Shown: positions 2,678-33,564, counted from the stretch's first letter. The stretch is 62,817 nt of DNA from a virus (IMGVR_UViG_3300023184_000121:1-62817), one strand, 5' to 3'. Notes: generated from the sequence alone by a model not told the origin. Program-made: numbers and translations.

Positions 2678-2681
2678 AAGC

Positions 2682-3257: not shown

Positions 3258-3261
3258 AAAT

Positions 3262-4170: not shown

Positions 4171-4185
4171 ATTAATGTACTTATG

Positions 4186-13000: not shown

Positions 13001-16000
13001 AATCCCTCCCCTTGGCGCCGGGCGCGGCTCAATTGCTTCGACATCGCTAAGCGGGAACCCCCACTTGGAAGCGCCGGGCTTGATGTCGTATTTGGATCCA
13101 GCAGGCACAAGGTGTCTACGCTCGTCTGCCCGGAAGCTCGCCTCGTCCTTGTACTCGATCGGCTCTCCGATATTTGCAAAGCCAACAATCTTGGCGTCGT
13201 CCGCTGTCTTCTTAGTTGAAATAAGCCCAACGCGCTTGCCAATGTAGGACTTTAGCGAAATTGGGTTATCGCGGGTCTCAATCGTCTTTTCTCCGCTCAG
13301 GATTTGAGCCGTAAACGGCAACTCAGAATCGTTGATGTTGATTCCCATCCGAGGCAAGACGCGCTCGGTTTCTTTGGCTTGCCGTTGAGGAGCCGTCTCC
13401 GGCGTCTGCCCCGCCTCACGAGGCTCCCCGGCAAGGTTGTAGATTGCCTTTCCGTAGTCTACCGGGAGCTTCGGCGCTGTAGGATCCGGGTTCAAAACAA
13501 TCCCGGCGATGTGCCGCAAGTTTCTCGAGCGAACAAGCACGTTCGGGTTGGATGACTTCTCATCAGCCTTTTGTTCAGCCGTCAGCTTAACATTCGGGAG
13601 CACCGTCCTGTCGTCATTTGTGTGGACGGTCTCTTTGTTGTACATATTCAAAAAGTCATTGAATACGTCGCGCTTTTGCTTGGCCTTTGCCTCGTTTGCG
13701 TCAAGCCCCACCCAGCCTTCTCGCCCCTCCATCCAATTGCGAAGGTACACGTTAGCAAACTCGTTAACAAAATTGTTTTTGTTGAAGTTCCAGTCCTTCA
13801 GACGACTGGGCATATGCTGCGCCCAACGGTCGAGCTTCTCTTCCATCGAGGAGACGTCAAACGTCGTGACTAACCAAGTGCCAGCCTTTGAAAGGTGAAG
13901 CCCAATCGGAACCATCTCGACGTGCTTTGGCGAAAACTCGACGTAGGATCCGTTGCGAGCGTATCGGTTGGCGTAGTCAATAATGTAGCGTGATCCGTCG
14001 GCCCGATCAATTGCGTCAGTGAGCGTAAACAACAGCGTCTTTACGGATAGCGGAACGACGTTTTCTGGCAGTGCTGCGATTGCCCTTTTTTGCGCGTCCG
14101 TAAGCTTGCCGCGATACGTTAAGCCGTCTTCGGAAACAGCCCGGAACCTTCCCGGGGTGCCTTCATCTCCAGAGTTGTCGATAGCGTAGCGAATTGCTGC
14201 CTCTCGATTTCGGATGGTCTTCTTTACGTTAGCTCCACCGAGTTCAACGGGAACTCCGTTGTTATCGTAAATAACCTCTCTGCGAATTGTGACCTTCCCG
14301 CCTTCAGGCACGTTAATGAAGTCCGGGAGGGATCCAAATCCCCGCACTCGCTTTGGCTCTGCCTTCCCCGTCTCCGGGTTAACGGAGTGCTCCCAATCAC
14401 CTTCAAAAGTGCCTTCAGGCAGATCAACAATTTGCTTCTCTCCGGCACTGTTTTCGATTGTAGCGCGAACCCGGGTCGCAAACATCCCGTCGTCTTTTGC
14501 GTAGTGATCGACGAGCTTTTTGTTCTTGGTGAATTCGCCCTTGGTGATTTTTGGGGTCACCTTCGAGTTGTTGTACTGCATCTGCCCTTGCAAATCCGAA
14601 ACAGCGCGAAGCACTCGAATATTTGCGTCCACCAACTCTTTTGAAAAACGAACCCCTGTCTCTCCACCAGTATAGTCTCCAGCAGATAAATTTGCCGCCT
14701 CCCTGACAGCGTTCCCGAGATTTGTCTCCGCCATGTACTTGGTCGTGAACCAGTCCAGCAACCCGGCAACCGGGCCAAATCTGTTGGAATTAATGCCATG
14801 CAGGAATCCTGAACCGATCAAATCGGCCAGCACTTCTTCTTTCATGTACTCAACAGCGGCAACATCGTTGACCTTGTTGTTTTCAGCATCCCACAGACCG
14901 TTTGACTCGCACCATTTTTGGAAGTCGTTGTCCTTTAACCCGCCAAGATATTCTTCGCGAAAAAGCTTCAGCAGTTCTTCCGGCTTCAAAGCCCCCTCTT
15001 CTTTCCGAAGCACCTCTCCATTCAAGTCGACGTCTTCATGTCCAAATAGGTACGCGACAATTCCTGCGTACTTTTCATTGAACTCCTGTCGGTCTCGAGC
15101 GGCGTGCCCGGCCTCGTGCGCTATCAGTTGAGCCAACGGCTTATTGTGCGCCGTCTGAGCTTGATTCACGCGATCCATGTTGATGATGAGCGCGTCTTTC
15201 AAGGGATCAAAAACAATTGCCCCTTCGGACGTTTTGATCTGACCATTTGGAAGCATGACGTCTCCAGAGCGGAGCATTCGCATTCCCCGGCGATTCGCCA
15301 TATCCCGTAAGATTGCGTCGTTATGAGCTTCCACTTCGGGCGTAGCGTTTGTGAATAGAAGCGGGTTTGCGGCGCGTAGCTTCTGATAAATCTCCTCCCC
15401 GGTGAGAAGCTCAATACCAAGCGTCTTCCCGGGTGTCAGGGCGCCGGAGTACGTCTGATCAATATCCGCCATCAGGTGACCCATTTCGCGCTTGTACGCG
15501 AGCCTAGTGCCGTTTGTAGCGTTCTCCATCCCGTGATACTGGGCGGCGAGCCGCCTTGCCTTAGCTTCAGACTCAGACAACTTTGCCTGAGCCGCCTCGA
15601 TTCCATCATGGGCAGCCTGAACTTGTTCCGGCGTGCCCCCTCCAAAAACAGCCTGCTGCCTCGCGGCCTCGGCCTGCTGAAGCTCTTGTTCTGCCTCGAG
15701 AACTTTGGAGTGCTCTTTTTCAAAAGCGATTCTGTTTTGTTCAATAACAGCCTCCCAGCTCCCTACTCTTTCAAAGTTTGCACGAGCCTCCGGGGACATC
15801 GCATTAATTGTGATGCGGGCCTGATGGTCGTTACGATTATTTTCGGCGGCTGCCACTTTTGGGTCTTTCCCCATCGCGTGCGAGTATACCCCCGTGATCC
15901 ACGATAGGTATGCGCCCTCTCCCCAAGTGTCCAACATCCCGACGGCGTCTTGGTTATTAAAGATACCAAGCGGGATGGCAAGCTTACCCATCTCTACGCC

Positions 16001-17831: not shown

Positions 17832-19790
17832 TTACTCGGCGCTTATTCCCACGCTTGATATTCCAGCTCCATTCCATCCGGGAACTTTTGCAGGATCGTA
17901 GTCCCGGAATTCGCGCAAGTTTGTTGGTTTTCCAGTTTTTTTGGCAATCGCTGCTTCTTTTGAAATCTCCTCTGCTTTTTTCAAAAGCTCAGCATATCCC
18001 GGATCAGTGCGCTTGAGTTTACTTAATTTCTCAGTAACTGTCTCAAGCTCCTCGGTGAGATATGCGGAAGTTCTCAATATCGGCCAAGGGTGTGGCCTTT
18101 CTTCAGGAAGTAAATTTGGATGTTTAGAATCCAAAATTCGATTGATGCCTTCTACCATTGGATTCAACCCTCTAGTCGTAAGGTTGTAAGAGTCATACAT
18201 GATGTCTCTCATCTCTTGAATTTGTTCTCTCCGTAAAAACCCCCTCCCGGCGTACTTCCACCAATTTCTCTGCACTTCTGCAAGAAGACCATCATAGGCA
18301 GTGGCGGCGGCATGATATTGCGCTTCAGTAGGCACTTTCCCAGCCGCAAATCGTACAAATTCATCCAAAACTGCAAGGTCAGCAGTCCCCGGAGATTTCG
18401 AGTGTCCTGAAAGAATTGAGTCAGCAGCAGCGTCAAACTGTTGCAAAATAGGCAACCTCAACTGCTGCATTCTTACAACTGCGTTTTGATTAAAAGCCTG
18501 CGCTCTTCTTGCTAGTGCGTTTTCTTTTTGAAGATCTAATTTAGCAATCTGATTCTGGTTTCTTTCCCAGAACTCTAACATTGAAATCTGCTTGGCGGCA
18601 TTTTGCTGAGTTACGTTGTTCCATTTAACTTCGTATTGCCCATTTTTCAACAATTTAGGAGCGCCATCAGGCTCGTACGCTGGGTTAATATTTCCCATTG
18701 TCCACTTTGCAATATACGTCTGCGCGTCCCTTAAAGAATTAAAATAGTTATCAGGAGGCAGTCCGGGATATTTGCCTCGAAACTGTTGCGCGATAGCGCC
18801 AAGATTTTGAGCGCCCGGGCCAAATTTTGGCTGCCCCATTTGGGCTACTGGACTGTCTGTATTTTCGGTCAACACGGACAATGGAGTATCCTGCTTAACA
18901 GAAGCGCCTCCCCTTGTTGGCGCCTGCTCGAGTGTTGCTCCCATACTACGGCGCTGAGGCATCCCGGCGCCCATCTGCGAAATCATCTGCGAGATTTGCG
19001 CTTGTTGGGTTGGGATTGGCATCCCGGGCAAAAGCTGAGTTGAGGTTGTGACTGGAAGCGCAGCTTGTGCCCACTGATCCATTGCTGGAGCAGTGGCAGG
19101 AGCGCGGCCTCTTAATAAAGTTGGATCAGGCAATTGAAGAGCCGGGCCAGATGCCGCATTTGGAGCCAAAGATACCGCTCCAAGACCCGGGGCAGCCCGC
19201 AGCACGCTATCTGGGATGTTTGGTGCAAGCGAAATCGCAGGCGCATTAGGGTCTAAAATAGACAGATCTTTTTGGGTGCGCCGCATCAAGGGAATTGGCT
19301 TATCTTCTTCGTTTAACCCATTTTCTTCCGCCCACTGTGCAAGACCTTCGTTGACTGCTTTTTTTTCATCGGCGGCGCCACTCGGGGGAGCGTTAAATAT
19401 GGGGCTGTTTGGATCGCCCACGGAAGCCATGTTTGCTGGAAGTGTCGCTTTTTTTCGAGCGTCAATAAGCTTCTTATGGAATTCAGCTTCCTCAAGTGCC
19501 TTATACCAATCCAAATTTGCCTTATCTTGCTTCCAAGCCTCTTCCTTCTTCTCCTGCTTAGATTTGATGTACTGTGCAGAAATGGTCGAGGCTGCCTTCT
19601 CAATTCCGCCAGCCACAAGCTCAGACTTCGAGGATGGCACATCCCAAGGTCGTCCGGCCTGAATGTTAATAGGCGACTGCAACCCGCCCGCGAATGACAA
19701 CGGCTTCAGCCCGGCAAGCGGCGCCAACTCGAGAGGAGTAAGGTTCAGCTCTGTTGGTTGAATGGTTATCCCACGGGGGTCGAAAGCCAT
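17832..19790 (-). CDS. Putative internal virion/ejection protein (~652 aa)
   Basis: Directly upstream of the giant protein; Pro/Ala/Gln-rich with a helical C-terminal half. Confidence 0.65.
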   Translation of the reverse strand: MAFDPRGITIQPTELNLTPLELAPLAGLKPLSFAGGLQSPINIQAGRPWDVPSSKSELVAGGIEKAASTISAQYIKSKQEKKEEAWKQDKANLDWYKALEEAEFHKKLIDARKKATLPANMASVGDPNSPIFNAPPSGAADEKKAVNEGLAQWAEENGLNEEDKPIPLMRRTQKDLSILDPNAPAISLAPNIPDSVLRAAPGLGAVSLAPNAASGPALQLPDPTLLRGRAPATAPAMDQWAQAALPVTTSTQLLPGMPIPTQQAQISQMISQMGAGMPQRRSMGATLEQAPTRGGASVKQDTPLSVLTENTDSPVAQMGQPKFGPGAQNLGAIAQQFRGKYPGLPPDNYFNSLRDAQTYIAKWTMGNINPAYEPDGAPKLLKNGQYEVKWNNVTQQNAAKQISMLEFWERNQNQIAKLDLQKENALARRAQAFNQNAVVRMQQLRLPILQQFDAAADSILSGHSKSPGTADLAVLDEFVRFAAGKVPTEAQYHAAATAYDGLLAEVQRNWWKYAGRGFLRREQIQEMRDIMYDSYNLTTRGLNPMVEGINRILDSKHPNLLPEERPHPWPILRTSAYLTEELETVTEKLSKLKRTDPGYAELLKKAEEISKEAAIAKKTGKPTNLREFRDYDPAKVPGWNGAGISSVGISAE

Positions 19791-19791
19791 A

Positions 19792-20310
19792 TTAAGAACC
19801 TCCAAATGTTGTATTTTGACCAGAGTTGATCACATTTGCGCCCATCGCTCTTGAACCACCAACAGGGGCGCCAGTATTAGGAGTAATAGCCGCCGCGTTT
19901 GTTGCGGCAATTGAGCCGCGCCCTCCGCCTCCAGCAAGCCCCTGCGATGCGTACTGCGCCTGCTGCGCCTGCGCCGGATTATACACGCTTCCGGCAGAGC
20001 CAGCGGCACCAGCCGAGTTTACGGAATTCAGCATCGATGTCTGAGCGTCCTCGGCGGCCTGTTGAGCGTTCATTGCCCCAAGCGAGCTAAGCGCAGCTTG
20101 CTGTCCTGCCTGCTGTTGTTGGTTGGCGGCAAGATCTTGCTGCGTGATCTGCTGCTGGCGAACCCGGGCCTGCTCTGCCCTAGCCGCCTCCTCTTGCTGC
20201 GCTTTCAGGGATGCCGCCGCTGCTTCCGCCGCCTTTTGAGACGCCTCTGCATTAGCCTGCGCTTGTCGCGCTGCTTCGCCAGTATTTCCGCCTCGTCCTC
20301 CTCCTCCCAT
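19792..20310 (-). CDS. Ala/Gln/Gly-rich ejection-type paralog 3 (MGGGG...TFGGS)
   Basis: Start re-called at MGGGG, 1 nt after the upstream stop; shares ITPNTGAPV and the terminal FGG motif with neighbours. Confidence 0.7.
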   Translation of the reverse strand: MGGGGRGGNTGEAARQAQANAEASQKAAEAAAASLKAQQEEAARAEQARVRQQQITQQDLAANQQQQAGQQAALSSLGAMNAQQAAEDAQTSMLNSVNSAGAAGSAGSVYNPAQAQQAQYASQGLAGGGGRGSIAATNAAAITPNTGAPVGGSRAMGANVINSGQNTTFGGS

Positions 20311-20311
20311 A

Positions 20312-20998
20312 TTATTTTGAACCTCCAAATTTTATGCCGGATAAATCAGGCATGGAAAAAGATGCATTTGACTGTGCCGTTGGGGCGCCTTGCACTGGCG
20401 CTCCTGTGTTTGGCGTAATTGAAGCGCCGTTAACAGAATTCATGGCATTCATTCGCCCTCCAGATCCGGGCATGGCGCCAGTCTTGGCGTAGGATGCTGC
20501 CGACGATGCGCCTTGGTCAAAGACTCCACCAGTCCCGCCAGATCCGGGAGAAACAATATTTGTACCAATAAGAGCGGAAGCGTCTTGTAGCTTCTGTTGG
20601 CTGTTTTGAGCAGAAAGCGCTTTCTGGGCCAGTGCGTTTCCTCCCTCAGCAAGAAGCCCAGCGGCCTGATCTTGTCGATTGATTTCTGCCTTTCTGTTTG
20701 CAGCATCTAACGCTTCCTGCGCGGCCTTTGCTTCTGCTTGCTGCCTCGCCAGTTGCTCCGCAAGGGCGTCGGCAACTTGTTTGGCGGAAGCAGCAGCGGC
20801 GTCGGCCTGCGCCTGCGCCTGCGCCTGCGCCTCGTCGGCGCCCTCATTCATCGAATTCTGGATAGCTGTAATTCCAGTTTCGGCTTTTAGTACCTCAAGA
20901 GGAGTTCTCGCGCTTGCAAGCTCATCAATCCCAGCAACTCGACCAATAACTCGAGTTGGGTAAGTTACAATACTTGCTAAACTCTTCCAGAATCCCAT
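20312..20998 (-). CDS. Ala/Gln-rich ejection-type paralog 2 (MGFW...KFGGSK)
   Basis: Coiled-coil AQ core, ITPNTGAPV, FSMPDLSGIKFGG. Confidence 0.7.
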   Translation of the reverse strand: MGFWKSLASIVTYPTRVIGRVAGIDELASARTPLEVLKAETGITAIQNSMNEGADEAQAQAQAQADAAAASAKQVADALAEQLARQQAEAKAAQEALDAANRKAEINRQDQAAGLLAEGGNALAQKALSAQNSQQKLQDASALIGTNIVSPGSGGTGGVFDQGASSAASYAKTGAMPGSGGRMNAMNSVNGASITPNTGAPVQGAPTAQSNASFSMPDLSGIKFGGSK

Positions 20999-20999
20999 A

Positions 21000-21479
21000 T
21001 TAGGCGCCTCCGAAAGTTAAGCCGGATGTGTTCGGCATAGAGAATTGATTGGCGGACTTTGCCGTGGTCATAGCCGGATTTTTACTCATCCCGGAGATGT
21101 TTGCGTCAGTCTTTGGAAGAGCGCTAGAAGCCATGTTCAGATTGGCTTTCTGGGCAGCCTGCTGCGCGTTGATGTCGTACGCCCCGCCGACTTGAGCGGC
21201 ACCTCCAGCGGCAGCCTGCTGCTGCAACGCCATAGAGGCAGCGGCGTCTTGAGACTTTTGGTATTGGTTCAGCATTCCAAGCGTCTGCTGCGCTTGGTAG
21301 GCGCCTTGGTTTGCTCCGGCAGACGCGGCGTTGTCTTGAGCCGTGGAAATTGCCTCCTTTTGAGCCTTGGCAGCATCTTCTCGGGCCTGAGCCTGAGCGG
21401 TCTCCATATTGGCAATCATTTTCAGCATCGGCCCATTGTCCGGCGCTGGCATCGAAATAACTCTAGTTCCTCCTCCCAT
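21000..21479 (-). CDS. Ala/Gln-rich ejection-type paralog 1 (MGGG...TFGGA)
   Basis: AQ core, FSMPNTSGLTFGG. Confidence 0.7.
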   Translation of the reverse strand: MGGGTRVISMPAPDNGPMLKMIANMETAQAQAREDAAKAQKEAISTAQDNAASAGANQGAYQAQQTLGMLNQYQKSQDAAASMALQQQAAAGGAAQVGGAYDINAQQAAQKANLNMASSALPKTDANISGMSKNPAMTTAKSANQFSMPNTSGLTFGGA

Positions 21480-21491
21480 AATTTTGTTGTG

Positions 21492-21995
21492 TTAGCTGAC
21501 ATCATCTACCCCGCCTAAAAGGCTAAAGTCGGGTTCTTTGTTTGGGTTTGAATTCTGTTTTTTCTTTTTTGCGGCATCGGCTGCTTGTCCTTGCTTCTTT
21601 GCCCCGTAAACAGAAAGCCCCACACTCACCGCATTGTTTACGCCCTTCTCAACCCCTTGAGCTACCTTTTCCGATCCTGAGCTTTCGATGTTCCAAGGAC
21701 GGTCTGCTTCAAACGTAAGCGCGGTATCGTCCGATGTTTGACCGCTATTTCTTGGGTCGGTATTAAGTTCTTTTGCAGGGGCGCTTGGGGCGCTTGGGGC
21801 GCTTGCGCTCCCGGATCCGGCATTGGCTCTAGAAAATGTTGCTGCTAGGTTTGCCCACTTCTGACCATTGGGATCTGCGGCGCCGCTATTGGCCCCCATC
21901 TCATCGATAACTTTATTCCGCCGAGCTTCTTGCTCAGACTGAAAGTCTGGCGAGCTTGACGCGCCTGATTTGGATGATTCGGTAGATCCTCCCAT
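21492..21995 (-). CDS. Low-complexity protein starting MGGS, partly paralogous to 17832-19790
   Basis: ATG 1 nt after the TfuA stop; RPWNIESSGSEKVAQGVEK resembles RPWDVPSSKSELVAGGIEK. Confidence 0.65.
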   Translation of the reverse strand: MGGSTESSKSGASSSPDFQSEQEARRNKVIDEMGANSGAADPNGQKWANLAATFSRANAGSGSASAPSAPSAPAKELNTDPRNSGQTSDDTALTFEADRPWNIESSGSEKVAQGVEKGVNNAVSVGLSVYGAKKQGQAADAAKKKKQNSNPNKEPDFSLLGGVDDVS

Positions 21996-21996
21996 A

Positions 21997-22998
21997 TTAT
22001 TTTTTGTTGAAGGCTTGAAATTGGATGGCAAGAGGGGCGACCTCGGAACCGCAAGTGGTTGAATTGAACCAGTCGAGCATATTTTGCCTTATTGCCTTCC
22101 TGATTGCAAACTTGTTCCACTCTTGGTCAGAAATTCCATTTATAGCCATCCAGTGCGCGGCAGATTCCGGGTCAAATATACCAAGACTGCTCCACATTTT
22201 AAACGATTGTTCCTGAATGTCTGAATCGGAAGCCACAACGCCCTGATTCATGGCCAACTCAGTCAGCGCGTAAAAATCAAACGCCTCGTCCTTTAAAATC
22301 GCCGTCTCCCATTTCCTTACCCCGTTCACAAGGGTGTCGTTTTTCAAAAGCGCCACAAACAAAGAGTTTAAAGCGTTTTCAGACGGTGCCGCCGGAATAC
22401 GAGGAGTTTCAATCATCGCCTTTAAGATTGCCTCCTCGGCGTCTATTTTCTTTTGATCGACGTACCAATCTCGAATCAATTCATGCTCTTGAACCCGGTG
22501 CTTAATCGCCGACCAATTCCGCTCCGGGTAGTAAATCTCGGCGCACTCTAAAACCGCTTTTTCGGCGCTTGTAATTGCTCCCTTTGCCTCGAGGGCAAGG
22601 CAGGTTGCCAAGATGTTAACGAGCGGCACAGAAGCTGGCTCGTAGTCGCCTTCAACGTCGGCGTGAGCAAGAGCAACATCAGCATCGTCTGTGCAGGTGC
22701 CGTCTTTGTACCATTCGGCAATTTTACCGTAGACCTCCATCCCATATCGCTCGCATTCAACGCCCCGGAGGGCGCCAAGCGAGGCAGCGCCAATAACCCG
22801 GACGCCCGCCTGAATAGCAAAAAGGATCTCCTTGTGCCAAGGGGCCAAGTGATGAGTGAAAAGACCGTCAATCAGCACGATTGTTTTAACGCCGTCCAAA
22901 ACAGCGGTCGCAATGTCGCCCTGTTGCGCCGGGGGATAGACCTCAGCTCCCGGCGGAATTTGAGCCCTTGTTGGGCCGATAAAAATCCTCACTTGCAC
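21997..22998 (-). CDS. tfuA: TfuA-like protein (YcaO partner in thioamidation)
   Basis: FIGPT, PPAQQGD, LIDGLF, PWHKEIL, GAASLGALR, GM...G-x-I...Y, DDADVA, VPLVNI: the full TfuA signature. Confidence 0.92.
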   Translation of the reverse strand: MQVRIFIGPTRAQIPPGAEVYPPAQQGDIATAVLDGVKTIVLIDGLFTHHLAPWHKEILFAIQAGVRVIGAASLGALRGVECERYGMEVYGKIAEWYKDGTCTDDADVALAHADVEGDYEPASVPLVNILATCLALEAKGAITSAEKAVLECAEIYYPERNWSAIKHRVQEHELIRDWYVDQKKIDAEEAILKAMIETPRIPAAPSENALNSLFVALLKNDTLVNGVRKWETAILKDEAFDFYALTELAMNQGVVASDSDIQEQSFKMWSSLGIFDPESAAHWMAINGISDQEWNKFAIRKAIRQNMLDWFNSTTCGSEVAPLAIQFQAFNKK

Positions 22999-24137
22999 CG
23001 TCCTTTCTTGCCAAACAAATGGCTATACCCGGCCAGTCCCGGGGCAAGAACTCGAACAACAGAGCACGGATACGGATGCTGAAATTCCTTGTAGTAAATT
23101 GATCCGAATCCGGCATCGGAAAGTCGCTGCTTCAAAACTTCAATATCCCCTGAAAATGTGTCTGTCGAACAGTCGCCGTGCATGGCGCTCGATACGACGT
23201 TTTTGCTCGAAAGGATTTTGGCGACGTTGTCAGAAGTGTCATTCTTTTTGTTTTCAACAAACATCTGGTGCGAGATGTCGTCCCTCGATCCAGACATCCA
23301 AACCACCCGCCCTTGGACAGCCTCACACAAGGCCCGGCATTGAGCGACCACAGGATCAAGGTGGGAGGCATAGCCCCGGTAGATCCCAGTCCCGCGCTCG
23401 GAGTCGTACAAATACGCCATGAATGTCGGAACTCCAATATCTCCAGTGCAGTCAAAGATGACTGGGAATATCCCCTTTTGACGCAACGCGCCAACAAGGC
23501 CAAGCAGTGTTGAGTTGGCAATTGTGTCCAGATCAACCCGTGGAGGCGGATCAGGAAGACTCATAGCGGCATCAACTTGATCGCGCTCAATAACCTCGTA
23601 AATCCCCCCGGCAAGCGCTTCGTCTAGCGAATTACCCGAAGATAGACCGTTGCTTGATGAAACGAAACACGAGTGAAAGAGAGGGAACACTGGCTGCCTC
23701 GGAACTAGCTGAACAACCTCAACTGGAACAAATGCGCTTTCCCCAAGAAGGCCGGAAACCGACGTCCACCTACGCTCGACCCTTGGGTCGTAAAAAGCGC
23801 CTCGCATTAACTGAAACCGGGTCTCGTGACCATCAAGGTCGGCGCCGGAAGCGCTGAATGCCGGGAGTTTCGCTGTTTCGCCAACGTGCCGCTCAAATCC
23901 TTCCATCACGGCACTCGCTCTGGCTGCCGATTTGGTTGCCCCCTTCCCGGAGTCTGCTGACAAATAAATAGCATCAGGCCGGATGCACTGGGAAACGTGA
24001 ATTCCAGAGCAATCAAGCCCGGTAATATCTGAAACCCGAGTGATCCCGGCGGCGAAATAAAAAGGACGCATCCGCTCGAGCGTTTCCTCCGGGGTGCAGG
24101 ATCTTTGCGCCCCGTCCAAGCGAAGCTTTATGCCCAT
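22989..24137 (-). CDS. ycaO: YcaO-family enzyme, TfuA-associated (thioamide-forming) type
   Basis: GITRVSDITGLD, SGKG...SAVMEGFER, SSNGLSSGN...EVIERD, RALCEAVQGR...SGSRDD, VVRVLAPGL. Confidence 0.93.
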   Translation of the reverse strand: MGIKLRLDGAQRSCTPEETLERMRPFYFAAGITRVSDITGLDCSGIHVSQCIRPDAIYLSADSGKGATKSAARASAVMEGFERHVGETAKLPAFSASGADLDGHETRFQLMRGAFYDPRVERRWTSVSGLLGESAFVPVEVVQLVPRQPVFPLFHSCFVSSSNGLSSGNSLDEALAGGIYEVIERDQVDAAMSLPDPPPRVDLDTIANSTLLGLVGALRQKGIFPVIFDCTGDIGVPTFMAYLYDSERGTGIYRGYASHLDPVVAQCRALCEAVQGRVVWMSGSRDDISHQMFVENKKNDTSDNVAKILSSKNVVSSAMHGDCSTDTFSGDIEVLKQRLSDAGFGSIYYKEFQHPYPCSVVRVLAPGLAGYSHLFGKKGRCK

Positions 24138-25141
24138 TTTCTTTCAAGGGAGCAGAGAACAACCTTGGATACCATTTTTGCAAGCGATGAAGACTCAACA
24201 ATCTCGGCGATTTTTTGTCCTTTCCTGCAATACCCAGAGATAAACCAATCTGGAGCAGATCTGAACATTGCCGCCCGAAATCTCTTCCATCTGTCTGTCT
24301 TGGTGCCAAATGTTGCCCGGGCAACCCAGCAAGCGGCAACAGCAGCGCCAACAGCAGATCCTCCCGCGCCAATCAGTGCCCCAGTGGAGGCGTTCTTTGA
24401 CTGGGCATTATTGGTAGCGTTCGTAAGCATTGCCTGCTGGTAGTTTTGCCAGTTCGAGTTGTGGGCGTTTACGGCGCCGCTCCCCGTCGCCATCAGTTGA
24501 TTGATCCAATCAGTCGTCGATTGTGCGTTGCCCTGAGCGGCTCCAAGAACCCCCGCCCGCTGAGCCTGCCTGCCTTGCATTGCCTGAGCCTGCTGTCCCT
24601 GCTGCATCTTTAGCAGCGTTCCGGCGTCAATTCCAACTGGCGCTTGCGGGTTTGCTGCAACGTAATTTTGAGCCTTTTGTTCTTGAGCGTTCCGAAACGC
24701 CTCTCCCTCCTGAGTAGCCGCATCAAAAAACGCAGAATCGCGCACTGTTCCAGATGCGCCTGAGCCTAGATAACGAGTGAGCCCAGTCTTTCGAGTCCAG
24801 TCGTCCATTCGCCTCTGGGCGCCGCCGTTTAAGTCCTCAGATATCATCTGGGGAATCTGACGGCGCATCTGCGCTAGTGCTGGGTTGTTTTGGTTCTCTA
24901 CCTGCGAGTTCCTGAATGCGTTAACAGCCGCCACTTGTCCGGCTTGATTTTGCAACCCTTGCTCGCCCCATATGTCCGGCTGCCATGATTCCGTGGGCAT
25001 CCCGGCGGCATACCCAAGCAACCTGTTTTGGTTTTGCAGATTCCCGATGCCAGCATTGGTCAACAAATTCATCTGAGCGATGCTCAGAGTGTCGTCTGGT
25101 GGGCGAATAGCATTGCCCGGGTCAACTGTTGTTCCTCCCAT
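24128..25141 (-). CDS. Putative ejection/pilot protein (MGGT start) with a C-terminal CWVAR / CFI-box-CTERM-like domain
   Basis: Gln/Ala/Asn-rich body, hydrophobic GALIGAGG segment, then CWVARATFG...WKRFR...PDWF...Y...G. Confidence 0.7.
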   Translation of the reverse strand: MGGTTVDPGNAIRPPDDTLSIAQMNLLTNAGIGNLQNQNRLLGYAAGMPTESWQPDIWGEQGLQNQAGQVAAVNAFRNSQVENQNNPALAQMRRQIPQMISEDLNGGAQRRMDDWTRKTGLTRYLGSGASGTVRDSAFFDAATQEGEAFRNAQEQKAQNYVAANPQAPVGIDAGTLLKMQQGQQAQAMQGRQAQRAGVLGAAQGNAQSTTDWINQLMATGSGAVNAHNSNWQNYQQAMLTNATNNAQSKNASTGALIGAGGSAVGAAVAACWVARATFGTKTDRWKRFRAAMFRSAPDWFISGYCRKGQKIAEIVESSSLAKMVSKVVLCSLERKWA

Positions 25142-25142
25142 A

Positions 25143-25529
25143 TTAAGCAGGTTTGTAAAGTTCTCTATGCAGTCTGACTAGACCAAGTTTCGACATGGTC
25201 TCTTCCGGGAAGTTTCCAAGCCCTCCTCGGTTGTCAAATGGTACTCCAAGGTGCCCGGGCTTTCCAGACAATTGCGTTGCCGCCTTCCAGTCTCGCATCA
25301 CGTCAATAACGTCTCGTGGAGTGGTAAATTCCGGGTGAAAGGCCGGGTAAACAACTGGGATGAAAATGTGATCGGAATACCCAAACAGCCTGCCTTCGCG
25401 AAAATGCGCGTACACATTTGTGTAAGCGTTTGGAACAATCTCGTGATCAAACGATTTGGCAAACTCTTGGATTTTGGAAAAATCCTCGGATCCCGGGGCG
25501 ACAAATTTGTAATCAATTGATGGTCTCAT
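25143..25529 (-). CDS. Hypothetical protein, possibly a gp13-like/GNAT-fold assembly factor
   Basis: 128 aa between nozzle and ejection genes; the fold guess is mostly positional. Confidence 0.45.
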   Translation of the reverse strand: MRPSIDYKFVAPGSEDFSKIQEFAKSFDHEIVPNAYTNVYAHFREGRLFGYSDHIFIPVVYPAFHPEFTTPRDVIDVMRDWKAATQLSGKPGHLGVPFDNRGGLGNFPEETMSKLGLVRLHRELYKPA

Positions 25530-25771
25530 GGAGTAATCGCAATGTCAGTTGAGTCGTATAACGGAGTCTGCAATCGAGTTGACGCATTTGCAATCAATCG
25601 CTGGCGCTCTGTCGCGTTTCCGCACGCGGAGCATGGCATACACTGAGTCCCGTTCCCAAGATTGATTGGAATAGACGAGTACAACGGAGACGCTCCGTCG
25701 TTGCCAAATGGCGAAATAAACAAATTTGGAAAAAATGTTATCTGCTCAGTTAAATCAGTGATGTTTGGCAT
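25526..25771 (-). CDS. Small Cys-containing structural-module protein
   Basis: CMPCSAC; coupled to both neighbours. Confidence 0.55.
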   Translation of the reverse strand: MPNITDLTEQITFFPNLFISPFGNDGASPLYSSIPINLGNGTQCMPCSACGNATERQRLIANASTRLQTPLYDSTDIAITP

Positions 25772-25772
25772 T

Positions 25773-27899
25773 TTAGCACGGGTTCTTGATTCTGTACTGC
25801 TGCGCCGCAGTCGTTGCCTGCCTAGTGGCTATCGCCGTTGCCTGAATGTCAGCGTCTTCTTGAGAGACATACGAAATAAACTCTGCCGTTGATGTCCCGG
25901 AGACAGAGGGGCTCCCATTTGTGCATGAAAGCTTGATCGTGATTGTTTTTTGAGAAACCCAAACGTCCTTTGTGGTAGCAACGTCTTTTGATGGAGTCTC
26001 CAAGTTCACAATCATTGAGCTACCATCCTCTGCGACAACGCACGGCACGCTTTGATCCAAAGAGAGCCTGCCAACTGAAGGCTCTGGGTACGGATCCAGA
26101 AACATTCGGATCGACTCAACCCCAAATGCCCCACACCACTCCATCAGCAAAGAGAAGGCTTTATCGACTTCTGGAGAGTTAATCGACTCGCAAGTGCTTG
26201 TGTTTGTTCGATGAACGCTTTCTGTTGTGAGGCGCCTATACTGGGTTCTCAGCAGTCCCATCTCCCGAATCTTGTCTGCATCTGCCGAGTTTTCCCATTG
26301 GTACTTGTCGGTGATGGCAATTATTCGCTGCTGCAAAATATCTTTGTACTGCCCTTTTGAGCCCCTGTACGAGACCTTTACGTCAACGCTTCCAGATATT
26401 TGAGAAGCGTCTATTTCGGCGTACACCATTTGCTTTAGATCCATTGCGTCACCTAAAAGCCCGGTCTCCATCGAGGCATAAATTCGCTGATTCTTTTCTG
26501 TCGCAGACCCGTCTTGATTGATCGTCAAATAAGTGTCGAACCTGTTCGGAGTGAACGCTTCCCAAATGTGATTAAAGGAGGCGTCCTCGGTTGCGCCGTA
26601 GTCCACGGAAAATGCAAAAAGACGAGGTTGATTTCCAATAAACCCAGACGTCCATTCAATTGGACGGATTCCAGTCCAGATTCCGGCCCATGCCGGAGAC
26701 CTAGATTGATTCCATTCTGACGCCGGGACGTAGTCCAGAACCATTGTTGCGCTGTTTCCCTTCTCTAGGTAGGGAATTGAAGTCAAAAGGTAGTTTTCAA
26801 AAGAAGCAGCGCAAATTTGAGTGATATCCTGAGCCATCAATCGCTTCACTCGAGCCATTTCCACGTCCTTGTACAAAACCTGCGACGACAAGTACGAAGA
26901 TGCCGCAACGTCGGCGCTTACAAGCCCCCCTTGGCTAAACCACCACATCATGCCTGCCTGAAAGCAGATCGATTTTCCGGCAACGCATCCAATGTTAGGG
27001 TAAAGCGTATTTTGAAAGTTTGGAGTGGATGCCCAAAGCGACCTGTCGAGAACCCCGGAGGCAAATGAAAATGTGCTGCGATCACTGAACACGAAGAGCC
27101 TAGAGTCATTATTCTGCCCAATGTGGTCTGTCATGCCCGTTACGGGCCTTGGAATTGAAAAATCGCCCCTCCCCGCCCCAGACACCCGCTCTGTCCAACC
27201 AAGTGGATTTCCTAGATCTGAAGCTTGGATCACGTTCTCCGAGGCAACCCATAGTCTATTTCCTGAAAACGCCATCCAAAATCCAACAGGAGCATCAGCG
27301 GCCCGTTGACCTGTTAAATCCGATCCATCCCAATAATGCGGTGTGGACACGCCATCCTGAATCACAACAATTCGATGCGATGGAGTCACCGTTACGCCGC
27401 CAGCCGGGTTTGTTTCTGCGCTTTTTGTCGCAATAGCAAAGTTGACCCGATCAATATTTGGATCCAGCTCAATTCCAGAAAGCCTGTAATCATCCCAGTC
27501 TTTAGGCTGGGTTAAAGGAAAGGGCGCGTAGTAAACTCGCCCGTTAACGCAAAAAACGATGTAGGATATCTCGCGCTCAGAGGATTCCTGCCCGGATGGA
27601 GTAAATATTGTCGGCGCCCTGTAGACTATTGACCCGGTATTAGTTGTGATTGTAGTGGCTGCTGATGCTTGCTTGTTTGCGTTGAAAACAACCCCTCCTT
27701 GAAAGTTTCCTTTAGGCACAGAAAGCCTCATTGAAAACCCGGGCCTAGTTTGAACAATGCCGCCGCGCACATTTATGTTCACTCCCCACTTAAACTGGTC
27801 TTCTGGAAGCGCCCAAGGCGAGCGCACCGAGTTTACTCCATGCACCCATCCGGCAGAGGCTTTTTGCTGCCGCCCGGAAGTAATGTTTGGACTCTTCAT
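25773..27899 (-). CDS. Putative tail nozzle / tail tubular protein B (beta-propeller type)
   Basis: 708 aa; N-terminal G-x-NS...NINVRGGIVQTRPG, GNRLWVA...SD, IGCVA; follows the adaptor-like gene. Confidence 0.7.
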   Translation of the reverse strand: MKSPNITSGRQQKASAGWVHGVNSVRSPWALPEDQFKWGVNINVRGGIVQTRPGFSMRLSVPKGNFQGGVVFNANKQASAATTITTNTGSIVYRAPTIFTPSGQESSEREISYIVFCVNGRVYYAPFPLTQPKDWDDYRLSGIELDPNIDRVNFAIATKSAETNPAGGVTVTPSHRIVVIQDGVSTPHYWDGSDLTGQRAADAPVGFWMAFSGNRLWVASENVIQASDLGNPLGWTERVSGAGRGDFSIPRPVTGMTDHIGQNNDSRLFVFSDRSTFSFASGVLDRSLWASTPNFQNTLYPNIGCVAGKSICFQAGMMWWFSQGGLVSADVAASSYLSSQVLYKDVEMARVKRLMAQDITQICAASFENYLLTSIPYLEKGNSATMVLDYVPASEWNQSRSPAWAGIWTGIRPIEWTSGFIGNQPRLFAFSVDYGATEDASFNHIWEAFTPNRFDTYLTINQDGSATEKNQRIYASMETGLLGDAMDLKQMVYAEIDASQISGSVDVKVSYRGSKGQYKDILQQRIIAITDKYQWENSADADKIREMGLLRTQYRRLTTESVHRTNTSTCESINSPEVDKAFSLLMEWCGAFGVESIRMFLDPYPEPSVGRLSLDQSVPCVVAEDGSSMIVNLETPSKDVATTKDVWVSQKTITIKLSCTNGSPSVSGTSTAEFISYVSQEDADIQATAIATRQATTAAQQYRIKNPC

Positions 27900-32045: not shown

Positions 32046-32078
32046 CAATAATGCTTCAGATTATTTTTTTCTCAAGAC
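32046..32078 (-). promoter_or_regulatory. Possible sigma70-like promoter for the tail operon
   Basis: Minus strand TTGAGA-aaaaaaataatctgaag-CATTAT. Confidence 0.4.
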
Positions 32079-32668
32079 GATAACACTAATTCTAGGTTGT
32101 CGCCTTCTTGAGCACCAACGGAGTACTTCAGTGCTGCATACAACCTTAGCGTAAAATCTAGATGCTCAGGATTTGTCAGCGAATTGCTCTCAAAAACAAT
32201 TTTACTTGGTGCAAGGCTTGGCTTTTTAAGCATCTCAATAAAAAACCACTTCAAAACAGAACAATCGCCGCCCTCAGTGTCAATTTTTAACAAATTTATG
32301 GACTCCACGTTGTTTCCAGAAATCAGCTCGGAAATAGGCATTAACGGAACCTGATCAACGGTTAGCGCGTGCGTGCATTGCAGTTTGTAATGTTGAGGAT
32401 GTGGCCCCCCAATTGAATTACACCCCCTCAACCAGTCAGGAAGTCCAAGATTGGCAATTACGTCAGGATGAACAAAATAGACATCGCAATATCCGCCTGT
32501 GTTGTCAAATGAGATTGCCGCGTGGATCTTTTTGACGTTTTGCCTTTCTGGCAAAGCTGCCAAATAAAACCCAATAGGCTCAACACACAATCCCACTGCG
32601 TCTGGTGCTGATTTTTCAACAACTGACTCAAAGTCAGACGTGCCAATTTCTATAAAGTCGTAATGCAT
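32072..32668 (-). CDS. FkbM-family methyltransferase
   Basis: DFIEIGTSDF, VEP, AAIS, INLLKIDTEGGD, IVFE. Confidence 0.85.
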   Translation of the reverse strand: MHYDFIEIGTSDFESVVEKSAPDAVGLCVEPIGFYLAALPERQNVKKIHAAISFDNTGGYCDVYFVHPDVIANLGLPDWLRGCNSIGGPHPQHYKLQCTHALTVDQVPLMPISELISGNNVESINLLKIDTEGGDCSVLKWFFIEMLKKPSLAPSKIVFESNSLTNPEHLDFTLRLYAALKYSVGAQEGDNLELVLSS

Positions 32669-32669
32669 A

Positions 32670-33563: not shown

Positions 33564-33564
33564 A

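What the first reader, a model, noticed from the sequence alone, without database searches (positions are those of the whole stretch)
19792..25141. Phage-encoded YcaO-TfuA thioamidation system embedded in the ejection-protein operon
Seen: full-length YcaO (22989-24137) with intact ATP/Mg motifs (MEGFER, SSNGLSSG...EVIERD, EAVQGR) and a full TfuA (21997-22998). The pair overlaps the upstream pilot-type gene by 10 nt, the two genes overlap each other by 10 nt, and TfuA ends 1 nt before the next ATG. They are therefore wired into the late structural transcript rather than being a loose moron. Known: YcaO-TfuA pairs install backbone thioamides (thioviridamide-type RiPPs; thioglycine of methyl-coenzyme M reductase), with TfuA supplying sulfide from a ThiS-thiocarboxylate. 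No RiPP transporter, protease, ThiS or ThiF was recognised here. Inference: the phage thioamidates its own virion/ejection proteins (protease resistance, conformational tuning, immune evasion) or a host target. I know of no characterised phage example.
Basis: partly seen in the sequence, partly recalled or inferred. Interest (0 to 1): 0.95.

Follow-up and report, generated by a model that had tools for sequence, protein, structure and literature searches.

The report
Phage YcaO-TfuA thioamidation pair
An uncultured freshwater phage, like dozens of related viral contigs, carries an intact YcaO-TfuA enzyme pair (the machinery that swaps oxygen for sulfur in a peptide backbone) wired directly behind one virion-module protein, which is probably its substrate and would be the first viral case of this rare protein modification.

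Summary
Window 22989-24137(-) is a full-length YcaO (PF02624, E 5.5e-55) and 21997-22998(-) a TfuA (PF07812, E 3.1e-33; model matches PDB 6XP8). The window is a complete 62.8-kb virus record with terminase, tail fibres and a 3594-aa polyvalent protein.

The pair is not a one-off. Two YcaO-seeded scans of IMG/VR gave 33 distinct contigs. TfuA follows YcaO in 32; the other contig ends inside ycaO.

In 29 of the 33 the gene directly upstream is the same kind of protein. It is Q/N-rich and ends in a Gly/Ala hydrophobic stretch. In 23 it also carries a basic C-terminal 'CW[VIL]AR' domain; in 6 that domain is missing.

That domain is common in phages that have no YcaO, and none of 80 bacterial YcaO loci has it. 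GenBank phages gave no YcaO hit, and five paper searches found no phage YcaO-TfuA report.

My best reading (about 0.45) is that the pair thioamidates this upstream internal-virion/ejection-type protein, using ATP and host-derived sulfide. A complex prediction gave only weak support. No chemistry is shown, and a host target or inherited synteny remain live rivals. I rate it a new variant of a known kind, of high interest.

The parts
22989..24137 (-). ycaO, 382 aa, ATP-dependent amide-activating enzyme
   Evidence: PF02624 E 5.5e-55, full profile. Best NCBIfam match is TIGR03266, the McrA-glycine thioamidation YcaO, at 174.7 bits, below its 365 cut-off. Best PDB match is MJ1094, 6PE3, E 2.8e-20. 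E79, E82, E181, E184, R185, D186, E272, Q275 and R277 are invariant in 16 phage sequences.
21997..22998 (-). tfuA, 333 aa (331 aa if it starts at GTG 22992): TfuA domain at about residues 18-174 plus a helical C-terminal extension
   Evidence: PF07812 E 3.1e-33. NF033432 133.5 bits, below its 235.2 cut-off. PDB 6XP8 by sequence, E 1.2e-27. AlphaFold2 model pLDDT 83.1, Foldseek to 6XP8 E 1.1e-13, TMt 0.79. The extension is conserved in phage homologues and shared with bacterial TfuAs, with tblastn reaching query residue 311 or beyond in Azospirillum and others.
24128..25141 (-). Candidate substrate: 337-aa Q/N/A/G-rich protein of unknown family
   Evidence: No Pfam, PHROG or PADLOC match. A homologue sits directly upstream of ycaO in 19 of 22 loci of the first scan, and a protein of the same kind in 10 of 11 new contigs of the second scan.
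24332..24382 (-). Gly/Ala-rich hydrophobic stretch (residues 254-270) of the upstream protein; proposed site of modification (inference)
   Evidence: Read from the translation. It is the very C-terminus of the protein in the variants that lack the C-terminal domain: L016-18, L198, L201, L203.
24131..24331 (-). Basic C-terminal domain (residues 271-337) beginning CW[VIL]AR; remote relative of CFI-box-CTERM
   Evidence: Alignment A1: invariant C24, W25, A27, R28, G32, W38, R42. NF041770 matches 7 of 12 members, best E 9.3e-5, below the cut-off. 1092 representative proteins at E<=1e-3. pI 9.8-11.8.
21492..21995 (-). 167-aa Ser/Ala/Gly-rich protein starting MGGST; its ATG lies 1 nt after the tfuA stop
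   Evidence: No family match.
19792..21479 (-). Three small Ala/Gln-rich proteins (159, 228 and about 172 aa), two starting MGGG, all ending in ..[TK]FGG[AS](K)
   Evidence: Translations. Similar termini in the closest relatives L002 and L016 but not in more distant loci. The 228-aa protein gives only a weak, compositional TolA match.
17832..19805 (-). 657-aa protein of unknown family in the same operon
   Evidence: No family match. Weak homologues at the same place in L002 and L016-18.
7046..17830 (-). 3594-aa giant polyvalent-type protein
   Evidence: PF18762 Kinase-PolyVal E 5.9e-15 at residues 2373-2460. Partial homologues (27-32% identity over 720-902 aligned positions) downstream of the pair in L002 and L016-18.
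25143..27899 (-). Upstream structural genes: 708 aa (possible tail hub/nozzle; a lead only), 81 aa and 128 aa
   Evidence: Conserved at 45-63% identity, in the same order, in L002 and L016-18. Atlas look-alikes are all viral, and one cluster carries PF11134 on 16% of its members. The structure model failed at pLDDT 33.

Best explanation
A phage-encoded, catalytically intact YcaO works with its TfuA partner to convert one or more backbone amides of a phage protein into thioamides. YcaO activates the amide oxygen with ATP. TfuA supplies sulfide by hydrolysing a host ThiS/MoaD-type protein thiocarboxylate, since the phage encodes neither ThiS nor ThiF. The most likely substrate is the product of the gene directly upstream (24128-25141). 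This is a Q/N-rich protein that sits at the internal-virion/ejection position of the structural operon. It ends in a Gly/Ala-rich hydrophobic stretch, usually followed by a basic 'CW[VIL]AR' domain. ycaO is translationally coupled to it, so enzyme and substrate are made together late in infection. Shown: family membership, conserved catalytic residues, the recurrent three-gene arrangement and the coupling. Inferred: the chemistry (thioamide), the sulfur source, the identity of the substrate, the site (I favour the Gly/Ala stretch, because it remains when the C-terminal domain is lost) and the benefit (protease resistance or altered backbone hydrogen bonding of a membrane-inserting ejection protein).
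For: Families: PF02624 and PF07812 are well above their cut-offs. The nearest curated and solved relatives are the methanogen McrA-thioamidation pair. The acidic and Arg positions that align with MJ1094 are invariant in 16 phage YcaOs down to 27% identity.

Recurrence: the first YcaO-seeded scan gave 22 viral loci. tfuA lies directly downstream in 21; the other contig ends in ycaO. A homologue of the upstream gene lies directly upstream in 19, of which 16 carry the C-terminal domain and 3 do not. A second scan seeded with the distant YcaO clade gave 11 new contigs. All 11 have tfuA downstream. 7 have the domain upstream by HMM. 3 have a homologous upstream protein (E 1e-18 to 1e-101 against domain-bearing ones) that stops at the Ala-rich stretch. 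1 has something else.

Reverse test: of 80 viral loci found with the C-terminal domain, 43 have ycaO starting directly after it, 27 do not and 10 are too short to tell. The 43 include YcaOs only 27-34% identical to the window's.

Coupling: in 16 of 16 main-clade loci examined, the ycaO start (ATG in 11, TTG in 1, CTG in 4) lies inside the last Trp codon of the upstream gene.

Specificity to phages: 0 of 80 bacterial YcaO loci have the domain, although 67 have TfuA.

Co-variation: YcaO-adjacent domains read ARA[AC]FG, where 23 of the 26 distinct YcaO-less ones read ARE[VI][YF]G.

Complex prediction of YcaO + TfuA + the last 90 aa of the upstream protein: VERDICT weak support. Score 0.59, best of 3 controls 0.00. 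The mark was reached by 58 of 80 solved complexes and 2 of 110 mismatched pairs, but at 0.60 or under by only 7 of those 80 and by both mismatches that passed. The runs agree in at least 30% of contacts, and the partner's pLDDT is at least 67. The score fell to 0.00 when YcaO was replaced.

Precedent: YcaO enzymes thioamidate whole proteins (MCR, uL16), and TfuA plus ThiS carriers deliver sulfide (PMC13063428, abstract and passages). TsaH/TsaI iteratively thioamidate an Ala-rich peptide tail, and thioamides protect against proteolysis (PMC8153245, passages).
Against: No chemical or expression evidence of any kind.

Adjacency may be inherited synteny. All phage YcaOs may form one clade: the constrained tree is not rejected (p-AU 0.827), so the arrangement may stem from a single insertion into a strongly syntenic structural module.

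In 3 of 22 loci (L008, L009, L023) the pair stands apart from structural genes, on the other strand. In the one complete genome among them (G001) the only domain-bearing protein is about 16 kb away and is of the YcaO-less sequence type. L200 has an unrelated upstream gene.

The C-terminal domain is dispensable: it has been lost in L016-18, in L198/L201 and in L203. It is also widespread without YcaO, in 7 of 8 records that are at least 90% complete. It therefore cannot be a dedicated recognition element.

The Gly/Ala stretch is also present in YcaO-less phages. The complex score is in the band where passes are more often wrong than right unless the guess was already likely. The co-variation rests on at most two or three independent lineages.
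Confidence: 0.45

Rival explanations
1. The pair thioamidates a host protein (for example a ribosomal or envelope protein) or another phage protein. Its position behind the Q/N-rich gene is only inherited gene order.
For: Both known protein substrates of YcaO thioamidation are encoded far from the enzyme gene or are recognised by tertiary structure (PMC13063428). The pair sits away from structural genes in L008, L009 and L023. Phage YcaO monophyly is not rejected, so one ancestral insertion could explain the synteny. The C-terminal domain is dispensable and common without YcaO.
Against: The start-in-stop-region overlap with the upstream gene is kept in 16 of 16 main-clade loci. The three-gene order survives divergence to 27% YcaO identity while the other neighbours change. 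The complex prediction gave weak support for the upstream protein's tail (score 0.59, best control 0.00; 58 of 80 solved and 2 of 110 mismatched pairs reach the mark; only 7 of those 80 solved, and both passing mismatches, lie at or below 0.60).
Confidence: 0.25
2. The system is RiPP-like. The Ala-rich C-terminal part of the upstream protein, or an unannotated small ORF, is thioamidated and released as a small bioactive peptide, for example against competitors or the host membrane.
For: The Ala-rich hydrophobic stretch resembles in composition the iteratively thioamidated Ala-rich tail of thioamitides (residues Val2, Met3, Ala4, Ala5, Ala7; PMC8153245 passages). The enzymes follow the 'precursor' gene as in RiPP clusters.
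Against: No protease, transporter, dehydratase or other tailoring gene was recognised among the neighbours. The 'precursor' is 240-977 aa long and sits among virion genes. No conserved small ORF was seen upstream in the main clade.
Confidence: 0.12
3. The YcaO performs a different amide activation: thiazoline formation at the invariant Cys of the CW[VIL]AR motif, amidine formation, or cleavage. TfuA would then have an accessory role.
For: The Cys directly after the Ala-rich stretch is invariant in A1. The YcaO also matches azoline-forming enzymes, more weakly: TIGR03604 at 84.3 bits, and MusD, TruD and LynD at E 1e-16 to 1e-11. YcaO chemistry is diverse (PMC13063428 introduction).
Against: The Cys is equally invariant in phages without YcaO. 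It is absent from the domain-less upstream proteins that still keep ycaO-tfuA. TfuA is kept in 32 of 33 YcaO contigs. No E1-like/Ocin-ThiF partner is present. The closest solved and curated relatives are thioamide-forming.
Confidence: 0.1
4. Artefact: a chimeric assembly, or bacterial DNA misfiled as viral.
For: The window is a metagenome-assembled record. Logan contigs of the likely source run break at a repeat at 20784-20842.
Against: The same gene order (708-aa, 81-aa and 128-aa genes, upstream gene, ycaO, tfuA, small proteins, giant protein) occurs at 42-73% protein identity in L002 and, mostly, in L016-18, from other records. There are 33 YcaO-seeded viral contigs in all. One contig of run X1 spans 20843-27000 with no differences, and an independent study (X2) holds 25 identical short contigs. 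The best bacterial YcaO among 185,579 species' genomes is only 40-42% identical.
Confidence: 0.01

Closest known systems
Methanogen YcaO-TfuA pair that makes the thioglycine of methyl-coenzyme M reductase (MJ1094, PDB 6PE3/6PEU; M. acetivorans TfuA, PDB 6XP8)
   Same: Best solved and curated relatives of both proteins. Two adjacent genes. Acts on a full-size protein. No RiPP accessory genes.
   Different: Scores are far below the equivalog cut-offs (174.7 against 365; 133.5 against 235.2). The phage TfuA has an extra helical C-terminal extension of about 150 aa. It is encoded by a virus, and there is no McrA.
Orphan bacterial YcaO-TfuA pairs (Azospirillum, Micromonospora, Gemmatimonadales, Actinomycetota MAGs)
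   Same: Closest cellular sequences: 40-42% YcaO identity, with TfuA directly downstream and carrying the same long C-terminal extension.
   Different: None of 80 loci has the CW[VIL]AR domain gene. The phage sequences form their own clades (SH-aLRT 100 and 96). The bacterial substrates are unknown to me.
Thioamitide TsaH (YcaO) / TsaI (TfuA), thiostreptamide S4
   Same: A YcaO-TfuA pair placed after its substrate gene. Iterative thioamidation of an Ala-rich stretch. Thioamides protect against proteolysis (PMC8153245 passages).
   Different: That substrate is a short precursor peptide inside a multi-enzyme RiPP cluster. Here the upstream product is a 240-977-aa virion-module protein and no tailoring genes are present.
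E. coli YcaO acting on ribosomal protein uL16
   Same: YcaO-dependent thioamidation of an intact, highly basic protein (PMC13063428, abstract and passages). The phage C-terminal domain is also highly basic, pI about 10-11.8.
   Different: EcYcaO works without TfuA and is a different subfamily (NF040716 43.9 bits against 700). The phage YcaOs are not unusually acidic: median pI 6.0 against 5.8 for the bacterial homologues.
CFI-box-CTERM domain (NCBIfam NF041770)
   Same: The 67-aa C-terminal domain aligns over profile positions 1-66 of 69, starting at its Cys.
   Different: Only 7 of 12 members match, the best E is 9.3e-5, and the window scores 13.3 bits against a cut-off of 40. It is not a member. 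I found no paper on the domain.
Internal-virion/ejection proteins of podoviruses (T7 gp14-16, P22 gp7/20/16); the comparison is recalled, not tested
   Same: Position after tail-hub-type genes and before very large proteins. A hydrophobic segment and low-complexity composition. PHROG 'internal virion protein' and 'virion structural protein' matches in neighbouring genes of related loci.
   Different: No sequence or structure match to any named ejection protein was obtained.

Membership tests
YcaO superfamily (PF02624) | Profile match above Pfam's gathering score over the whole domain | tested here: met
   187.4 bits against 25.7, profile positions 1-324 of 325. Repeated on the record.
YcaO superfamily (PF02624) | Conserved acidic/Arg residues of the ATP-Mg2+ site (the roles of these residues are recalled from the literature, not from a call) | tested here: met
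   The MEGFER, E-x2-ERD and E-x2-Q-x-R stretches align with MJ1094. E79, E82, E181, E184, R185, D186, E272, Q275 and R277 are invariant in 16 phage sequences.
TfuA (PF07812) | Profile match above the gathering score, and the TfuA fold | tested here: met
   114.5 bits against 30. 6XP8 by sequence, E 1.2e-27, and by fold, E 1.1e-13, TMt 0.79. Model pLDDT 83.1.
TfuA-dependent thioamidation system | ycaO and tfuA adjacent and co-oriented | tested here: met
   Overlapping genes in the window. Adjacent in 21 of 22 loci and in 11 of 11 new contigs.
TfuA-dependent thioamidation system | A ThiS-type sulfur carrier and its activating enzyme are available | tested here: not met
   No PF02597 or PF00899 match in the phage record. 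The carrier would have to come from the host: the same searches match 13 (ThiS) and 14 (ThiF) of 14 control genomes. The host is unknown.
TfuA-dependent thioamidation system | An O-to-S exchange on a defined substrate | not testable with these tools
   Needs mass spectrometry.
McrA-glycine thioamidation equivalogs (TIGR03266, NF033432) | Score above NCBIfam's equivalog cut-off | tested here: not met
   174.7 against 365, and 133.5 against 235.2. It works like them but is not a member.
Azoline-forming TOMM cyclodehydratase (TIGR03604) | Score above the cut-off; an E1-like/Ocin-ThiF partner | tested here: not met
   84.3 against 219.25. No ThiF-family match in the record.
uL16/S12-type YcaO (NF040716) | Score above the cut-off | tested here: not met
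   43.9 against 700.
RiPP (thioamitide-type) gene cluster | A short precursor peptide plus tailoring, protease or export genes | tested here: not met
   The neighbours have no Pfam, NCBIfam, PHROG or PADLOC match of that kind. The upstream product is 337 aa.
CFI-box-CTERM (NF041770) | Score above the 40-bit cut-off | tested here: not met
   The window scores 13.3 bits, E 0.054. 7 of 12 relatives match, best E 9.3e-5.
Phage virion/ejection module | Neighbouring genes match virion protein families; a giant injected-type protein is present | tested here: inconclusive
   The 1252-aa gene matches virion structural PHROGs. Related loci match tail collar fibre, internal virion and virion structural PHROGs. 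The giant protein has PF18762. The immediate neighbours, including the proposed substrate, match nothing, and the 708-aa model failed.

The most novel reading that the evidence does not exclude
This would be a third natural class of protein backbone thioamidation, and the first encoded by a virus. A lineage of freshwater podovirus-like phages would use its own YcaO-TfuA to install one or several thioamides in the Gly/Ala-rich, membrane-inserting tail of an ejection protein. That would chemically harden or tune the part of the virion that crosses the host envelope. Hundreds of related phage proteins carrying the same tail and the CW[VIL]AR domain would then be candidates for unmodified or differently modified versions.
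Probability: 0.3. Interest if true: 0.9.

Novelty: new variant of a known kind. Interest (0 to 1): 0.8.

Why it matters
Backbone thioamides in proteins are described as exceptionally rare: only methyl-coenzyme M reductase and ribosomal protein uL16 are cited (PMC13063428). A virus-encoded YcaO-TfuA pair, conserved in dozens of contigs and genetically tied to one virion-module protein, would extend this chemistry to viruses and to structural proteins.

It also offers a compact, directly testable enzyme-substrate pair of three adjacent genes with no other accessory genes. It gives a functional handle on a very large family of phage proteins of unknown function: 1092 representative sequences share the C-terminal domain.

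If the modification protects ejection proteins from host proteases or changes how they insert into membranes, it would be a new kind of virion maturation step.

Tried and rejected
1. GenBank phages (INPHARED). tblastn with YcaO, the upstream protein and the 708-aa protein, and blastn with 19000-26000, found nothing. The lineage has no cultured or deposited relative in that collection, so no annotation could be borrowed.

2. PHROGs, Pfam, NCBIfam and PADLOC on the immediate neighbours gave no useful match.

3. The structure of the 708-aa protein, predicted from a 7-row alignment, reached mean pLDDT 33.4 and is unusable, so it was not sent to a fold search. 'Nozzle' remains a lead from one Atlas cluster in which 16% of members carry PF11134.

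4. A word-based search with the TfuA C-terminal extension (residues 178-333) found only 4 close relatives. A fold search gave no match for that part. Its role is unknown. It is not phage-specific.

5. I first took the CW[VIL]AR domain to be the recognition element or substrate. I dropped this as a requirement for two reasons. Homologous upstream proteins without it still precede ycaO (L016-18, L198, L201, L203). And 7 of 8 near-complete phage records with the domain lack YcaO.

6. I considered the C-terminal ..FGG[AS] motif of the small downstream proteins as a target. It occurs only in the closest relatives (L002, L016), not across YcaO loci.

7. I tested whether two independent acquisitions sit next to the same gene. 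The tree leaves the two phage clades unresolved, and holding them together is not rejected (p-AU 0.827). Independent acquisition is therefore not shown.

8. Electrostatic complementarity, as for EcYcaO-uL16: the phage YcaOs are no more acidic than the bacterial homologues.

9. Sequencing runs: no RNA holder listed. Contigs of X2 to X4 leave parts of the stretch uncovered, and none of the listed X2 pieces bridges a gene junction.

10. Papers. These searches found no report of a phage YcaO-TfuA or of the domain: 'YcaO+TfuA+phage', 'YcaO+bacteriophage+thioamide', 'YcaO+viral contigs', 'YcaO+virion', 'CFI-box' and a recalled motif. The library lacks most subscription journals, and supplements were closed; the supplementary data sets of PMC13063428 (YcaO similarity networks) could list viral members that I could not see.

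Full report
WHAT IS THERE. All genes between about 7 kb and 43 kb of the window lie on the minus strand.

The ORF at 22989-24137 is a full-length YcaO. It scores 187.4 bits on PF02624 against a cut-off of 25.7 and covers profile positions 1-324 of 325. The ORF at 21997-22998 carries a TfuA domain: PF07812 at 114.5 bits against a cut-off of 30.

Their nearest curated relatives are the two methanogen families that make the thioglycine of methyl-coenzyme M reductase. Both score far below the equivalog cut-offs: TIGR03266 at 174.7 against 365, and NF033432 at 133.5 against 235.2. The best solved relatives are M. jannaschii MJ1094 (6PE3, E 2.8e-20) and M. acetivorans TfuA (6XP8, E 1.2e-27).

An AlphaFold2 model of the TfuA (pLDDT 83.1) superposes on 6XP8 (Foldseek E 1.1e-13, TMt 0.79). 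It adds a helical extension of about 150 residues that matches nothing solved.

The acidic and Arg positions in them are invariant in 16 phage YcaOs, down to 27% identity.

- a 10-nt overlap between the upstream gene and ycaO;
- an overlap of 10 nt, or more probably 4 nt (GTGA), between ycaO and tfuA;
- 1 nt between the tfuA stop and the next ATG.

CONTEXT. The window is a whole virus record of 62,817 b, rated 100% complete. It encodes:
- a large terminase, a possible small terminase, two tail-fibre proteins and a 1252-aa virion structural protein;
- a Sak4-like annealing protein, an exonuclease and a primosomal protein.

Downstream of the pair lie four small low-complexity proteins, a 657-aa protein and a 3594-aa giant with a polyvalent-protein kinase domain (PF18762, E 5.9e-15). 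None of the immediate neighbours matches any Pfam, PHROG, NCBIfam or PADLOC family.

In related loci the genes just upstream match tail collar fibre, 'virion structural protein' and 'internal virion protein' PHROGs. The reading 'structural/ejection module' is therefore reasonable, but it is not proven for the neighbours themselves. My attempt to model the 708-aa putative nozzle failed at pLDDT 33.4.

No ThiS or ThiF is encoded in the record.

RECURRENCE. GenBank phages hold no YcaO relative, but IMG/VR does. A scan seeded with the window's YcaO returned 22 loci at 49-73% identity.
- tfuA, full length including the extension, follows directly in 21. The last contig ends inside ycaO.
- In 19 of the 22 the gene directly upstream is a homologue of window gene 24128-25141.
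- In 16 of those the conserved part is the last 60 or so residues. In 3 (L016-18) only the N-terminal 230 or so residues match, and the protein stops at an Ala-rich stretch.
- In the remaining 3 (L008, L009, L023) the pair stands alone among genes of the other strand, next to a conserved divergent 73-80-aa ORF.

A protein search shows about 60 clusters at 49% identity or more, on contigs of at most about 62 kb. Identity then drops to 45% or less, where bacterial chromosomal homologues appear.

Among one genome for each of 185,579 prokaryote species, the best YcaO is 40-42% identical (Azospirillum). None of the 80 best loci encodes the upstream protein's C-terminal domain, although 67 have TfuA, 61 of them directly downstream.

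THE UPSTREAM PROTEIN. It has three parts:
- a long Q/N/A/G-rich region;
- a Gly/Ala-rich hydrophobic stretch of about 17 residues;
- a basic domain of about 67 residues (pI about 10-11.8) that begins CW[VIL]AR.

The domain is a remote relative of NCBIfam's CFI-box-CTERM: 7 of 12 members match, best E 9.3e-5, all below the cut-off. A profile of it finds 1092 representative proteins at E<=1e-3 among 1.84 billion. They are 80 to 1165 aa long, and by eye over the 150 listed rows the match sits at or near the C-terminal end. Atlas look-alikes are all viral.

I then scanned IMG/VR with this profile, which is the reverse test. Of 80 loci, 43 have ycaO starting directly after the domain, 27 have no YcaO within the flank and 10 are too short to tell. 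The 43 include four YcaOs that are only 27-34% identical to the window's. Of the 27 without, only one record has a YcaO anywhere, and 7 of the 8 records that are at least 90% complete have none.

So the domain is a common phage module, and a subset of phages have ycaO-tfuA right behind it. The YcaO-adjacent domains form a sequence subtype, ARA[AC]FG..T[DN][RK]W. By contrast, 23 of the 26 distinct YcaO-less sequences read ARE[VI][YF]G, mostly followed by ..NP.W. In YcaO-less phages the domain-bearing gene is followed by proteins of about 480-530 aa and about 1100-1200 aa. From memory, that order is like the internal core genes of T7-type phages.

A SECOND, LESS BIASED TEST. A scan seeded with the distant YcaO clade gave 11 contigs not seen before.
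- All 11 have tfuA directly downstream.
- 7 have the domain directly upstream by HMM.
- 3 (L198, L201, L203) have an upstream protein that is homologous over almost its whole length to domain-bearing ones. For example, L203 is 74% identical to L079's protein over 214 aligned positions. These proteins end exactly at the Ala-rich stretch.
- 1 (L200) has an unrelated upstream gene.

Over both YcaO-seeded scans, 29 of 33 contigs have this kind of protein directly upstream: 23 with the domain and 6 without. The constant neighbour is therefore the Q/N-rich protein ending in the Gly/Ala stretch. The basic domain has been lost at least three times while ycaO-tfuA stayed in place.

COUPLING. In 16 of 16 main-clade loci examined, the ycaO start codon (ATG in 11, TTG in 1, CTG in 4) lies inside the last Trp codon of the upstream gene. 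The upstream stop follows 4 to 24 nt later. This explains the invariant terminal Trp in the alignment and shows a conserved overlap typical of translational coupling.

PHYLOGENY. The tree has 114 distinct YcaO rows: 41 phage and 73 bacterial. It was built with IQ-TREE quick search under LG+G4. Matches covering fewer than 300 query residues, and identical duplicates, were dropped (133 rows reduced to 114). The 11 contigs were fetched later and are not in it.

The phage sequences form a clade of 37 (SH-aLRT 100) and one of 4 (96), both joining an unresolved node with bacterial clades. Holding all phage rows together gives a better likelihood (+23.6) and is not rejected (p-AU 0.827). A single ancient capture is thus possible. 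That weakens adjacency as independent evidence, but it implies that the three-gene order has been kept over very deep divergence while the genes downstream changed.

COMPLEX PREDICTION. I submitted YcaO + TfuA + the last 90 residues of the upstream protein, each with its own alignment.
- Verdict: weak support. Score 0.59, best of 3 controls 0.00.
- The mark was reached by 58 of 80 solved complexes and by 2 of 110 mismatched pairs. At 0.60 or under, however, it was reached by only 7 of those 80 and by both mismatches that passed.
- The runs agree in at least 30% of contacts, and the partner's pLDDT is at least 67.
- With YcaO replaced by an unrelated protein the score was 0.00.
- No interface was reported.

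I count this as a small push in favour, not as proof.

MECHANISM. What follows from established knowledge: YcaO enzymes activate a backbone amide with ATP. With sulfide as nucleophile they give thioamides. TfuA hydrolyses a thiocarboxylated ThiS-type carrier to deliver that sulfide (PMC13063428 passages; PMC8153245 passages).

The phage has the two enzymes but no carrier, so the host must supply it (inference). The substrate is most likely the upstream protein (inference from the linkage, the coupling, the co-variation and the weak complex support).

For the site I favour the Gly/Ala stretch, because it is what remains in the domain-less variants. In addition, thioamitide YcaO-TfuA pairs iteratively thioamidate an Ala-rich tail (residues Val2, Met3, Ala4, Ala5 and Ala7 are named in PMC8153245). 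This is a resemblance, not a test.

The benefit is speculative: resistance to proteases, as reported for thioamitide fragments, or altered hydrogen bonding in a membrane-inserting segment.

WHAT SPEAKS AGAINST IT.
- There are no chemical or expression data.
- The pair stands alone in L008, L009 and L023. The complete genome G001 carries only a YcaO-less-type domain protein, about 16 kb away.
- L200 is an exception.
- Both the domain and the Gly/Ala stretch are common in phages without YcaO.
- Possible monophyly makes the synteny a single historical event.
- The complex score lies in an unreliable band.

A host target therefore remains a serious rival.

ASSEMBLY. A contig of run X1 (possibly the source of the record) spans 20843-27000 without a difference. 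An independent freshwater study (X2) holds 25 identical short contigs across the stretch. Together with the many syntenic contigs, this excludes a chimeric join.

NOVELTY. Six full-text searches found no paper on a phage YcaO-TfuA pair or on the domain. Subscription journals and supplements were not covered. The enzymes are of a known kind. The viral setting, the link to a virion-module protein and the candidate substrate class are new. I rate it a new variant of a known kind, interest 0.8.

Noticed in passing
window 32072-35593 (-): Three consecutive GT1-type glycosyltransferase genes (the 380-aa one matches PHROG 3408 at E 3.7e-103) and an FkbM-type methyltransferase. They sit inside the structural operon, between the tail-fibre genes and the 1252-aa virion protein. 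This could mean glycosylation of virion proteins or of the host surface.
   Followed up: partly
window 19792-21995 (-); also L002 10282-11081 and L016 12140-13058: A set of small Ala/Gln-rich proteins share N-termini MGG[GST].. and C-termini ..[TK]FGG[AS]. The upstream 337-aa protein also starts MGGTT. The feature is seen only in the window's closest relatives. Its meaning is unknown; processing or a packaging signal are possibilities.
   Followed up: partly
window 7046-17830 (-): A 3594-aa single ORF with a polyvalent-protein Ser/Thr/Tyr kinase domain at residues 2373-2460, and nothing else recognised. Partial homologues lie in L002 and L016-18.
   Followed up: partly
L008 9776-9997 (-), L009 9763-9999 (-), L023 6924-7166 (-): A conserved 73-80-aa ORF is encoded divergently, with its start only 3 nt from the ycaO start, in the three loci where the pair stands apart from structural genes. 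Its function is unknown.
   Followed up: no
window 24131-24136 and the equivalent place in 15 loci: The ycaO start codon lies inside the last Trp codon of the upstream gene in all 16 main-clade loci examined. In four of them it reads CTG, an unusual start.
   Followed up: yes
L099 7423-7821, L100 7442-7708: An extra ORF of 132 or 88 aa lies between ycaO and tfuA in two related contigs.
   Followed up: no
L046, L069, L079 (tfuA at 7641-8969, 7410-8741, 7989-9350): In the distant phage clade TfuA is 443-454 aa long, with a further C-terminal segment of about 100 residues beyond the extension seen in the window.
   Followed up: no
L005 7455-10001, L019 7656-9995, L022 7065-9998, L066 1740-5348: The CW[VIL]AR domain is attached to N-terminal parts of very different lengths, giving proteins of 261 to 1202 aa. 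The long forms match no PHROG.
   Followed up: partly
window 20784-20842: A short repeat inside the 228-aa Ala/Gln-rich gene (an AQ-repeat region) is where the Logan contigs of run X1 break.
   Followed up: no
window 56785-57393 (-) and 1107-5232 (-): A weak MazG-like match (E 9.3e-4, below the cut-off), and a replication/recombination block of primosomal protein, Sak4-like annealing protein and exonuclease.
   Followed up: no
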